A DNA stretch of 64,000 bases from Escherichia coli (GCF_045037415.1 NZ_CP173438.1), one strand, 5' to 3'. Counted from the stretch's first letter, positions 13,283 through 14,710 are shown. A program made the numbers and translations. Notes: generated by a model from the letters alone, not told the origin.

Positions 13283-14710
13283 ATGAGCGATAAAAAGAAG
13301 CGCAGTATGGCGGGTTTGCCGTGGATCGCGGCGATGGCCTTCTTCATGCAGGCACTTGATGCCACTATTCTGAATACCGCCTTACCCGCAATCGCTCATA
13401 GCCTTAATCGTTCTCCTCTCGCGATGCAATCAGCCATCATCAGTTATACGCTGACGGTGGCGATGCTTATTCCGGTAAGCGGATGGCTAGCCGATCGCTT
13501 CGGTACGCGTCGCATTTTTACCCTTGCCGTGAGTCTGTTCACGTTGGGTTCTCTGGCCTGCGCACTTTCCAACTCGCTACCACAGCTGGTTGTCTTCCGG
13601 GTTATTCAGGGGATAGGCGGCGCAATGATGATGCCTGTTGCTCGGCTGGCCTTACTGCGCGCTTATCCTCGTAATGAACTTCTTCCTGTATTGAATTTTG
13701 TCGCCATGCCGGGTCTGGTGGGGCCAATTTTAGGCCCCGTTCTTGGCGGCGTGCTGGTCACCTGGGCAACCTGGCACTGGATATTTTTAATCAATATCCC
13801 CATAGGTATTGCGGGCCTTCTTTACGCGCGCAAACATATGCCCAATTTCACCACCGCACGACGCAGATTCGATACCACTGGCTTTTTGCTGTTTGGCCTC
13901 AGCCTTGTTCTCTTCTCAAGCGGAATAGAGCTATTCGGGGAAAAGATTGTCGCCAGCTGGATTGCCTTGACGGTAATTGTCACCAGCATCTGGTTACTGC
14001 TTCTCTATATTCTCCATGCGCGACGCACGCCAAACCCATTAATTTCATTAGATTTATTTAAAACCCGCACTTTCTCGATCGGTATCGTAGGCAATATTGC
14101 AACCCGTCTGGGGACCGGCTGTGTACCGTTCCTTATGCCATTGATGTTACAGGTAGGATTTGGGTATCAGGCGTTTATTGCTGGCTGTATGATGGCACCG
14201 ACAGCGTTAGGTTCCATTATTGCAAAATCGATGGTTACCCAAGTCTTACGTCGTCTGGGCTATCGCCATACGTTAGTGGGGATCACGGTGATTATTGGGC
14301 TAATGATCGCTCAGTTCTCTTTGCAATCACCAGCAATGGCGATATGGATGCTGATCTTGCCGTTGTTTATATTAGGGATGGCTATGTCGACGCAATTTAC
14401 CGCGATGAATACCATCACACTTGCCGATCTGACCGATGACAACGCCAGCAGCGGTAACAGTGTTCTGGCGGTCACGCAGCAACTGTCTATCAGTTTAGGC
14501 GTTGCTGTAAGTGCGGCCGTCCTTCGCGTTTACGAAGGGATGGAAGGCACAACGACAGTCGAACAATTCCACTATACGTTTATCACGATGGGCATTATTA
14601 CTGTTGCTTCAGCAGCAATGTTCATGCTACTGAAAACAACCGATGGTAATAATTTGATCAAAAGACAGCGTAAATCTAAGCCGAACCGCGTTCCATCAGA
14701 ATCGGAGTAA
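13283..14710 (+). CDS. hsrA: MFS efflux transporter HsrA/YieO (475 aa)
   Basis: ORF translation with 14-TMS MFS drug/H+ antiporter character ([38 protein letters not shown]...). Confidence 0.88.

What the first reader, a model, noticed from the sequence alone, without database searches (positions are those of the whole stretch)
14676..14710. Convergent hsrA and rbsR coding regions overlap by 35 bp at their 3' ends
hsrA (+) ends at 14710 and rbsR (-) ends at 14676, so the last 11-12 codons of each gene are encoded on opposite strands of the same DNA with no intergenic terminator. Transcripts from each gene must read into the other, which could give antisense interference between an efflux pump gene and the ribose repressor.
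Basis: seen in the sequence. Interest (0 to 1): 0.2.

Follow-up and report, generated by a model that had tools for sequence, protein, structure and literature searches.

The report
Ordinary 35-bp hsrA/rbsR tail overlap
Two neighbouring E. coli genes on opposite strands, the transporter gene hsrA and the ribose repressor gene rbsR, really do share their last 35 bases, but this is a long-annotated, common kind of gene overlap created by a small frameshift, and nobody has shown that it regulates anything.

Summary
hsrA (+, 13283-14710) and rbsR (-, 14676-15668) overlap by exactly 35 nt. The same overlap is annotated in E. coli K-12 RefSeq, and the junction is present in about 5,400 of 5,426 complete E. 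coli genomes.

In 80 other Enterobacteriaceae species the two genes are always convergent and abutting, from a 3-nt gap to a 53-nt overlap. The basal state is a 4-nt stop/stop overlap. A net 1-nt deletion at the end of hsrA carried it past its old stop, whose relic is CTAA at 14676-14679. This added a 10-residue tail read antisense to rbsR's last codons.

RbsR is the constrained partner: variation sits at rbsR third positions, and hsrA third positions are frozen. The HsrA tail lies outside its family profile. The new hsrA stop is nevertheless kept in 41/41 long-overlap loci.

No intrinsic terminator lies within 250 nt. Published data place a Rho-dependent termination region about 260 nt past the hsrA stop, inside antisense rbsR. 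A 2025 RNA-seq catalogue already lists rbsR-hsrA among 165 convergent "excludons".

Transcript overlap is therefore real and already recorded. Antisense interference remains untested. The finding is already known and of low interest.

The parts
13283..14710 (+). hsrA (yieO) CDS, 475 aa. It encodes a DHA2-type MFS transporter and is the second gene of the yieP-hsrA operon.
   Evidence: ORF. Pfam MFS_1 matches residues 17-406, and NCBIfam NF007799 matches residues 13-465 of 475. Annotated as hsrA b3754 in K-12. Operon context from PMC11340327.
14676..15668 (-). rbsR CDS, 330 aa, with a TTG start codon. It encodes the LacI-family ribose repressor and is the last gene of rbsDACBKR.
   Evidence: ORF. 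NCBIfam equivalog NF007743 matches 1-330/330, and Pfam Peripla_BP_3 reaches residue 329. PDB 9ny7 matches residues 2-330. TTG start confirmed.
14676..14710 (.). The 35-nt convergent CDS overlap. The codon phase is 1:1, 2:3, 3:2 (123:132).
   Evidence: The phase was worked out from the sequence. It is the commonest phase for convergent overlaps of at least 5 nt (PMC2174442).
14676..14679 (.). CTAA tetramer: the rbsR stop (CTA on the + strand) plus a TAA that is now out of frame for hsrA. It is a relic of the ancestral 4-nt stop/stop overlap.
   Evidence: The alignment of 29 junctions shows TTAG/CTAA/TTAA tetramers used as both stops in 26 loci with a 4-nt overlap. The tetramer class is described in PMC2174442.
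14678..14707 (+). Lineage-specific 10-residue HsrA tail ([10 protein letters not shown]), read antisense to RbsR residues 321-330.
   Evidence: The tail is absent in short-overlap genera, where HsrA ends ...NLIKERHK(R/A/K)*. It lies outside NF007799 profile coverage, which ends at residue 465. Its synonymous sites are frozen.
14708..14710 (+). The current hsrA stop, TAA. It is built from rbsR codons Thr321 (ACT) and Leu320 (CTT), so it depends on rbsR's synonymous codon choice.
   Evidence: rbsR Leu320 is CTT or CTC in 41/41 long-overlap loci, against mixed codons in 40 short-overlap loci. A stop at this position is present in 41/41 long-overlap loci and 17/41 other loci.
14831..14950 (+). C-rich, G-poor stretch (C/G about 1.4-1.5) on the hsrA-sense RNA, 120-240 nt past the stop. 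It is a candidate Rho loading (rut) region.
   Evidence: 60-nt window C/G profile. This is an inference and has not been tested.
14972..14972 (+). Published Rho termination region for hsrA-strand transcripts (K-12 3938923, - strand), antisense to rbsR. The method's resolution is coarse (800-nt windows).
   Evidence: PMC7815308 suppl. file 2: Rho score 2.78, p = 7.6e-6. The coordinate mapping was verified.
12568..13260 (+). yieP, a FadR/GntR-family regulator. It is the first gene of the operon that drives hsrA transcription toward rbsR.
   Evidence: ORF, annotation. YieP activates its own operon (PMC11340327).

Best explanation
This is an ordinary, already annotated tail-to-tail overlap of two real genes. 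It arose by displacement of a stop codon and has no demonstrated regulatory role.

Origin. In the ancestor of Enterobacteriaceae, hsrA and rbsR already abutted, with their stop codons interlocked in a 4-nt tetramer (TTAG/CTAA type). In the lineage leading to Escherichia, Salmonella, Citrobacter, Enterobacter and Leclercia, a net 1-nt deletion occurred in the A-rich, Lys-coding end of hsrA. This shifted the frame past the old stop. Translation now continues for 10 more codons on the antisense of rbsR's last codons. It ends at a TAA formed by rbsR codons Thr321-Leu320 (ACT-CTT).

Constraint. RbsR's C-terminus, the conserved end of the LacI-family sugar-binding domain, dictates the sequence. The HsrA tail is mostly a passenger. 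Its stop, and perhaps its terminal Glu residues, are kept by restricting rbsR's synonymous codons.

Transcription. There is no room for an intrinsic terminator, so each RNA polymerase must run into the other gene. hsrA-strand transcripts are stopped by Rho about 260 nt inside antisense rbsR, once ribosomes have left at the stop codon. The 3' end of rbsR transcripts is undefined.

Shown: the overlap, its conservation, its polarity, the frame shift relative to short-overlap genera, the site-variation pattern, and the lack of hairpin terminators. Taken from the literature: Rho dependence and overlapping RNA-seq coverage. Inferred: single-event origin, the rut site, and negligible regulatory effect.
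For: - The overlap and its annotation.
- Species survey of 82 loci (80 species loci plus the SK1144 and K-12 E. coli loci): overlap -3 (1 locus), -2 (7), 4 (26), 9 (6), 24 (1), 35 (36), 53 (5). The genes are always convergent.
- The C-terminal peptides show RbsR ...LQLTPxLxxRGS[AV]* conserved everywhere. HsrA is conserved up to ...NLIKERHK and variable after that.
- The DNA alignment shows long-overlap loci 1 nt shorter just 5' of the tetramer.
- In an NJ tree of HsrA+RbsR with the junction excluded, the basal lineages (Buttiauxella, LSJC7, the Franconibacter/Siccibacter group, Kosakonia, Phytobacter) all have short states.
- Mean site entropy in the overlap is 0.56 at rbsR position 3 (= hsrA position 2) and 0.26 at hsrA position 3 (= rbsR position 2). 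hsrA position 3 has entropy 1.49 just upstream of the overlap.
- Peripla_BP_3 and PurR homology reach RbsR residue 329, while the HsrA family profile stops at residue 465.
- There is no terminator-like site or inverted repeat at the junction.
- A Rho termination region lies at window ~14972 on the + strand (PMC7815308), with a C-rich stretch upstream of it.
- The stop-codon-mutation origin and the 123:132 phase are the norm for convergent overlaps (PMC2174442).
Against: - In the NJ tree the long-overlap state falls in two clades that are not sisters. A single origin therefore needs a reversal, a tree error or recombination.
- rbsR synonymous sites are about 45% less variable inside the overlap than in the flanking codons in the long clade (Mann-Whitney p = 0.036). 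They are not reduced in the short clade (p = 0.25). The hsrA stop is fixed in 41/41 loci. The HsrA tail is therefore not entirely neutral.
- The gap-free junction is kept in all 80 species. The pair also appears in an RNA-seq excludon catalogue. A selected transcriptional interaction is thus not excluded.
Confidence: 0.85

Rival explanations
1. Functional convergent excludon. The absence of any spacer is selected, so that transcription of yieP-hsrA and of rbsR interfere with each other. Interference would act through head-on RNA polymerase collision and/or duplex RNA cut by RNase III. It would couple repressor dosage of the ribose operon to expression of the YieP/HsrA efflux module.
For: - rbsR-hsrA is one of 165 convergent excludons called in at least 50% of 58 RNA-seq data sets (PMC12288877).
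- hsrA-strand RNA extends about 260 nt into antisense rbsR (PMC7815308).
- The junction has at most a 3-nt gap in all 80 species examined.
- A comparable E. coli pair, mscL-arfA, has experimentally shown antisense regulation (PMC10070815).
Against: - Any pair with overlapping CDSs is called overlapping by a coverage criterion whenever both genes are expressed, so the listing adds little.
- The overlap length is not conserved (-3 to 53 nt), and the 4-nt state forces no more than a few nt of antisense.
- hsrA-strand read counts at this locus are low.
- Rho curtails the antisense RNA rather than letting it span rbsR.
- p19 dsRNA validation failed for convergent excludons in general.
- No functional link between ribose regulation and HsrA is known.
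Confidence: 0.1
2. The 10-residue HsrA tail is itself a selected functional element, for example an acidic cytoplasmic C-terminal motif ...PSExE. The overlap would then persist because both proteins need these codons. This does not exclude the best explanation.
For: - rbsR codons Leu320 (CTT 39/41), Thr321 (ACT 40/41) and Val/Ile323 (GTT/ATT 40/41) are nearly fixed in long-overlap species. They vary in short-overlap species, where ACT never occurs.
- These choices encode Glu, Glu and the stop in HsrA.
- Synonymous variability is reduced in the overlap only in the long clade (p = 0.036).
- The stop is fixed in 41/41 long-overlap loci against 17/41 other loci.
Against: - HsrA second codon positions in the tail vary freely: N/T/S, R/H/P, V/A, S/Q/P.
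- The tail is absent from about half of the genera and lies outside the family profile.
- The sample is small (10 codons) and the species are phylogenetically non-independent. Excluding the Met codon raises p to 0.064.
- Selection may act only to keep the extension short.
Confidence: 0.25
3. Annotation or sequence artefact: one of the two C-termini is mis-called and the genes do not truly overlap.
For: Long overlaps in prokaryotic annotations are often mispredictions (title and abstract of PMC2478687). Orthologues in many genera have a shorter HsrA.
Against: - A 3' end is fixed by the first in-frame stop, and neither ORF has an earlier one.
- The 35 nt are identical in K-12 and the window.
- The same overlap is found in 36 of the 82 loci surveyed.
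- Both proteins match their families end to end, apart from the HsrA tail.
- At 35 nt the overlap is short, and mis-called starts are not involved.
Confidence: 0.02

Closest known systems
Convergent (tail-to-tail) overlapping gene pairs of prokaryotes, phase 123:132, generated by stop-codon mutation (Lillo & Krakauer 2007, PMC2174442)
   Same: The two genes lie on opposite strands and share their 3' ends. The phase has first positions facing each other and second positions facing third positions. The pair derives from a 4-nt CTAA/TTAG-type stop/stop tetramer by loss of access to the old stop. No rho-independent terminator fits between the genes.
   Different: Nothing essential differs. Here the stop was bypassed by a 1-nt frameshift rather than a point mutation in the stop itself. 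In Lelliottia and Huaxiibacter, a second event (rbsR TAG to TCG) lengthened the overlap to 53 nt.
Excludons, i.e. neighbouring opposite-strand genes with overlapping transcripts (E. coli map in ExcludonFinder, PMC12288877)
   Same: The pair is explicitly listed as a convergent excludon of E. coli MG1655. The transcripts must overlap by at least 35 nt.
   Different: Reciprocal expression and RNase III processing, the functional hallmarks of an excludon, have not been shown for this pair. The listing rests on RNA-seq coverage only.
mscL-arfA convergent pair of E. coli (PMC10070815)
   Same: It is an Enterobacterial tail-to-tail pair whose 3' regions are complementary. The degree of overlap varies between genera (overlapping, proximal or distal).
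   Different: For mscL-arfA, antisense RNA control was demonstrated by deletions and complementation, and it involves a known RNase III-cleaved stem-loop in arfA. No such structure or experiment exists for hsrA-rbsR.
Bidirectional intrinsic terminators between convergent genes, and programmed RNA polymerase collisions (bioRxiv 10.1101/2022.10.23.513370)
   Same: The gene arrangement is convergent, so head-on polymerase encounters are possible.
   Different: That mechanism needs a stem-loop between the gene boundaries. None is present here. Termination on the hsrA strand is Rho-dependent instead.

Membership tests
Convergent overlapping protein-coding gene pair | Both ORFs are genuine genes with recognised families | tested here: met
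   HsrA matches MFS_1 (E = 1e-48) and NF007799 (457 bits). RbsR matches equivalog NF007743 (697 bits) and PDB 9ny7.
Convergent overlapping protein-coding gene pair | The genes are on opposite strands and share nucleotides at their 3' ends, each ending at its first in-frame stop | tested here: met
   14676-14710 is shared. The stops are TAA at 14708-14710 (+) and TAG at 14678-14676 (-).
Convergent overlapping protein-coding gene pair | The overlap is conserved in related genomes and is not a one-off sequencing or annotation error | tested here: met
   The 35-nt overlap occurs in 36 of 82 loci across Escherichia, Salmonella, Citrobacter, Enterobacter, Leclercia and Intestinirhabdus. The junction is present in 5413 of 5426 E. 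coli genomes.
Excludon | Transcripts of the two neighbouring genes overlap in vivo | not testable with these tools
   No expression data can be computed here. Literature: the pair is listed in the MG1655 excludome (PMC12288877), and a Rho termination region lies 262 nt inside antisense rbsR (PMC7815308).
Excludon | Mutually exclusive or reciprocal expression of the two genes | not tested
   No gene-specific data were found in the papers searched.
Excludon | RNase III-dependent processing of the duplex region | not testable with these tools
   p19 dsRNA capture gave very few 3'-UTR duplexes for convergent pairs in general.
Bidirectional intrinsic terminator between convergent genes | A G+C-rich hairpin flanked by A- and U-tracts at the gene boundary | tested here: not met
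   There is no terminator-like site within about 250 nt of the junction on either strand. There is no inverted repeat at the junction. The + strand 14690-14910 folds no better than shuffled sequence (z = -0.08).
Rho-dependent terminator downstream of hsrA | Bicyclomycin-sensitive loss of downstream reads | not testable with these tools
   Literature only: Rho score 2.78, p = 7.6e-6 at K-12 3938923 (-), equal to window 14972 (+).
Rho-dependent terminator downstream of hsrA | A C-rich, G-poor untranslated stretch upstream of the termination region | tested here: inconclusive
   C/G is 1.4-1.5 over 14831-14950, against 0.45-1.06 in the first 100 nt after the stop. The enrichment is moderate and no control distribution was computed.

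The most novel reading that the evidence does not exclude
The spacer-free convergent junction, kept in all 80 Enterobacteriaceae species examined, might be a selected device. YieP-driven transcription of hsrA would run head-on into rbsR, curtailed by Rho about 260 nt in, and would tune RbsR dosage and hence ribose-operon inducibility. In the other direction, ribose-induced read-through from rbsDACBKR would damp hsrA. This would link sugar catabolism to a membrane-stress/efflux regulon. The constrained synonymous codons in rbsR would then reflect a co-adapted dual-coding segment.
Probability: 0.07. Interest if true: 0.35.

Novelty: already known. Interest (0 to 1): 0.1.

Why it matters
It matters little. 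The overlap has been in the reference E. coli annotation for decades, belongs to the commonest class of convergent overlaps, and is already catalogued as a transcript-overlapping pair.

The useful by-products are modest:
- A clean natural example of how a 4-nt stop/stop junction grows into a 35-nt and then a 53-nt dual-coding segment through a frameshift and a stop loss.
- Evidence of which partner dictates the sequence. RbsR does, with the HsrA tail as passenger but its stop preserved through rbsR's synonymous codon choice.
- A practical caution that a single insertion or deletion here damages both genes, as in E. coli strain 1162C, and that engineering the 3' end of either gene alters the other.

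Tried and rejected
- Intrinsic or bidirectional terminator at the junction: none was found. The + strand fold is no better than shuffled sequence.
- The - strand 14480-14700 folds better than shuffles (z = -3.58). It has no U-tract and no 3' end has been reported there, so I left it unexplained.
- Known RNA family in 12000-21000: only the end of the 16S rRNA gene matched.
- Mapped 3' end for rbsR transcripts: no entry antisense to hsrA appears in the Term-seq or Rho tables of PMC7815308. The supplements of PMC6061677 are not held. PMC6131387 does not mention either gene.
- Literature on a specific hsrA-rbsR interaction: only the excludon list entry was found.
- My first stop-extension script gave spurious overlaps of 40, 79 and 124 nt for three loci, because tblastn had aligned through stops. 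They are not seen in the recalculation that walks each ORF from its start.
- Single origin of the 35-nt state: the NJ tree did not settle this.
- I did not run structure prediction or the large protein searches. They would not bear on the question.

Full report
**1. Observation**

The window carries a + strand ORF at 13283..14710 (475 aa) and a - strand ORF at 14676..15668 (330 aa). Reading the sequence, hsrA ends ...AAG CCG AAC CGC GTT CCA TCA GAA TCG GAG TAA, with the stop at 14708-14710. rbsR ends ...CTT ACT CCG ATT CTG ATG GAA CGC GGT TCG GCT TAG on the other strand, with the stop at 14678-14676.

The codon phase puts first positions opposite each other and second positions opposite third positions (123:132). 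The window is 100% identical to E. coli SK1144. The same overlap is annotated there by PGAP and in K-12 MG1655, where rbsR is 3938227..3939219 and hsrA is 3939185..3940612 on the complement. An ungapped coordinate map between K-12 and the window holds with 31 mismatches in 2386 nt, and the 35 nt are identical. A 131-nt junction probe finds the region in 5413 of 5426 complete E. coli genomes, and all but one best match are at least 95% identical.

**2. What the two genes are**

HsrA matches Pfam MFS_1 (residues 17-406) and the NCBIfam MdtD-like subfamily NF007799 over residues 13-465 of 475. RbsR matches its equivalog NF007743 over 1-330/330, and Peripla_BP_3 reaches residue 329. Solved RbsR structures exist (9ny7/9ny8), and homology to PurR runs to RbsR residue 329.

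The overlapped codons are therefore inside the conserved fold of RbsR. In HsrA they lie beyond the conserved family core.

**3. Comparative anatomy**

A scan of one genome per species returned 80 Enterobacteriaceae loci. In every one, hsrA and rbsR are convergent and abut. These 80 loci plus the SK1144 and K-12 E. coli loci make 82, whose junction lengths are:

| Overlap (nt) | Loci | Where |
|---|---|---|
| -3 | 1 | UBA3516 |
| -2 | 7 | Kluyvera, Phytobacter and others |
| 4 | 26 | Klebsiella, Raoultella, Pluralibacter, Franconibacter, Siccibacter, Yokenella, Trabulsiella, Buttiauxella and others |
| 9 | 6 | Kosakonia and Enterobacter sp. Bisph1 |
| 24 | 1 | Kosakonia oryzendophytica |
| 35 | 36 | Escherichia, Salmonella, Citrobacter, Enterobacter, Leclercia, Intestinirhabdus |
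| 53 | 5 | Lelliottia, Huaxiibacter and one Enterobacter MAG |

RbsR ends ...LQLTPxLxxRGS(A/V)* everywhere. HsrA is conserved up to ...DGRNLIKERHK and then diverges.

The DNA alignment shows that short-overlap genera end hsrA at a TAG or TAA interlocked with the rbsR stop (TTAG/CTAA/TTAA). Long-overlap genera are one nucleotide shorter just upstream, so the old stop is out of frame. Its relic is the CTAA at 14676-14679. hsrA then reads ten further codons, to a TAA made from rbsR codons Thr321-Leu320.

In the Lelliottia/Huaxiibacter group (5 loci), the rbsR stop itself has additionally changed (TAG to TCG). This adds six residues to RbsR and gives the 53-nt overlap.

An NJ tree of HsrA+RbsR, with the junction excluded, places only short states on the basal branches. 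The short junction is therefore ancestral. In that tree the long state falls in two clades that are not sisters, so one origin versus two remains open.

**4. Which gene constrains the shared DNA**

Across the 41 long-overlap loci, mean site entropy inside the overlap is 0.56 at rbsR third positions (= hsrA second positions). It is only 0.26 at hsrA third positions (= rbsR second positions). Immediately upstream, hsrA third positions have entropy 1.49. The shared segment evolves like rbsR, and the HsrA tail's amino acids change as a by-product (N/T/S, R/H/P, V/A, S/Q/P).

The tail is not wholly free, though:
- rbsR third-position variability in the last ten codons is about 45% lower than in the preceding eleven codons in long-overlap species (Mann-Whitney p = 0.036, or 0.064 without the Met codon). 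It is not lower in short-overlap species (p = 0.25).
- rbsR Leu320 is CTT or CTC in 41/41 long-overlap loci, the only CTN codons that give hsrA a stop there. Thr321 is ACT in 40/41, and ACT never occurs in the short group.
- Read in the E. coli hsrA frame, a stop sits at this position in 41/41 long-overlap loci but only 17/41 others. Without it, the extension would run 21-107 codons in most of the rest.

I infer weak selection to keep the extension short, and perhaps to keep its terminal Glu residues. The species are not independent and the sample is small, so this is tentative.

**5. Transcription**

No terminator-like hairpin with a U-tract lies within about 250 nt of the junction on either strand. 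No inverted repeat lies at the junction. The RNA downstream of the hsrA stop folds no better than shuffled sequence (z = -0.08). The RNA downstream of the rbsR stop folds somewhat better than shuffles (z = -3.58), but without a U-tract.

Published data fill part of the gap. Adams et al. 2021 (PMC7815308, supplementary file 2) report a bicyclomycin-sensitive Rho termination region at K-12 3938923 on the - strand, classified as antisense to rbsR. Its Rho score is 2.78 and p = 7.6e-6. This maps to window 14972 (+), 262 nt past the hsrA stop. It lies just downstream of a moderately C-rich stretch at 14831-14950 (C/G about 1.5).

No 3' end antisense to hsrA is reported in that data set, so where rbsR transcripts end is unknown. 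Sanmartin et al. 2025 (PMC12288877) list rbsR-hsrA among 165 convergent excludons detected in at least 50% of 58 MG1655 RNA-seq data sets. They could not validate convergent excludons with p19 dsRNA capture.

The further idea of antisense interference has no gene-specific support. The low hsrA-strand read counts, the Rho curtailment and the variable overlap length all argue that any effect is small.

**6. Comparison with known systems**

The pair fits the standard description of convergent overlapping genes. The E. coli annotation analysed by Lillo & Krakauer contained 58 such overlaps. The 123:132 phase accounts for 49% of convergent overlaps of at least 5 nt. Stop-codon mutation is the usual origin, and CTAA/TTAA/CTAG/TTAG tetramers are the 4-nt class (PMC2174442).

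The pair resembles mscL-arfA, where antisense control was shown experimentally (PMC10070815), but lacks equivalent evidence. It does not meet the defining feature of a bidirectional stem-loop terminator, which is needed for programmed polymerase collisions (versus).

**7. Verdict**

The feature is already known and ordinary. The only small additions are the reconstruction of its origin (a frameshift past an interlocked stop pair, then a second stop loss in one lineage) and the asymmetric constraint. Interest is 0.1.

Noticed in passing
window ~14708 (E. coli 1162C, NZ_CP051659.1; locus L084 3572-4822): In strain 1162C an IS3-like ISEc52 element sits exactly in the hsrA/rbsR overlap. PGAP flags both genes as pseudogenes missing their C-termini, so one insertion damages two genes.
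   Followed up: partly
window ~14620-15830 (E. coli JNE181771, NZ_AP027156.1; locus L083 2803-2821): This strain has a natural deletion that removes the hsrA 3' end, all of rbsR and the rbsK 3' end. hsrA and rbsK are both annotated as partial pseudogenes.
   Followed up: partly
window 15574-15595, with 15570 and 15508: A perfect 8-bp hairpin (ATCGCTTC-ACTGAC-GAAGCGAT) lies inside rbsR codons ~25-32. It scores as terminator-like on the + strand, which is antisense to rbsR. Published Term-seq places a 3' end of rbsR-sense RNA 4 nt after it (K-12 3938325). A Rho termination region lies at K-12 3938387. Together these suggest premature termination within rbsR.
   Followed up: partly
window 13283-14710: PGAP names this gene mdtD ('multidrug transporter subunit MdtD') because HsrA passes the NF007799 subfamily cut-off (457 vs 426 bits). 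K-12 RefSeq calls it hsrA. From my own knowledge, the gene named mdtD in E. coli belongs to the mdtABCD operon elsewhere on the chromosome. The PGAP name is therefore misleading.
   Followed up: partly
L034 (CACSKA010000004.1, 'Chryseobacterium sp. 18061'): A record labelled Chryseobacterium carries an Enterobacteriaceae hsrA-rbsR locus that is the nearest neighbour of Citrobacter sp. 18056 (L027) in the tree. This is probably a mislabelled or contaminated assembly.
   Followed up: no
window 14480-14700, - strand: The RNA downstream of the rbsR stop (antisense to the hsrA 3' end) folds better than shuffled controls (z = -3.58). It includes the hairpin CCUUCGU-AAAC-GCGAAGG at about 14522-14539. 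There is no U-tract and no reported 3' end, so its meaning is unknown.
   Followed up: no
window 15666-15668 (- strand) and 15669-15671: rbsR starts with TTG, and its start lies only 3 nt after the rbsK stop (the rbsK ORF ends at 15672). A weak start codon together with tight spacing suggests low, coupled translation of the repressor.
   Followed up: no
window 12000-12087, - strand: The 5' end of a 16S rRNA gene (Rfam SSU_rRNA_bacteria, model positions 1-90) lies upstream of yieP and is transcribed away from it. This matches the conserved rrn / yieP-hsrA / rbs arrangement described in PMC11340327.
   Followed up: no
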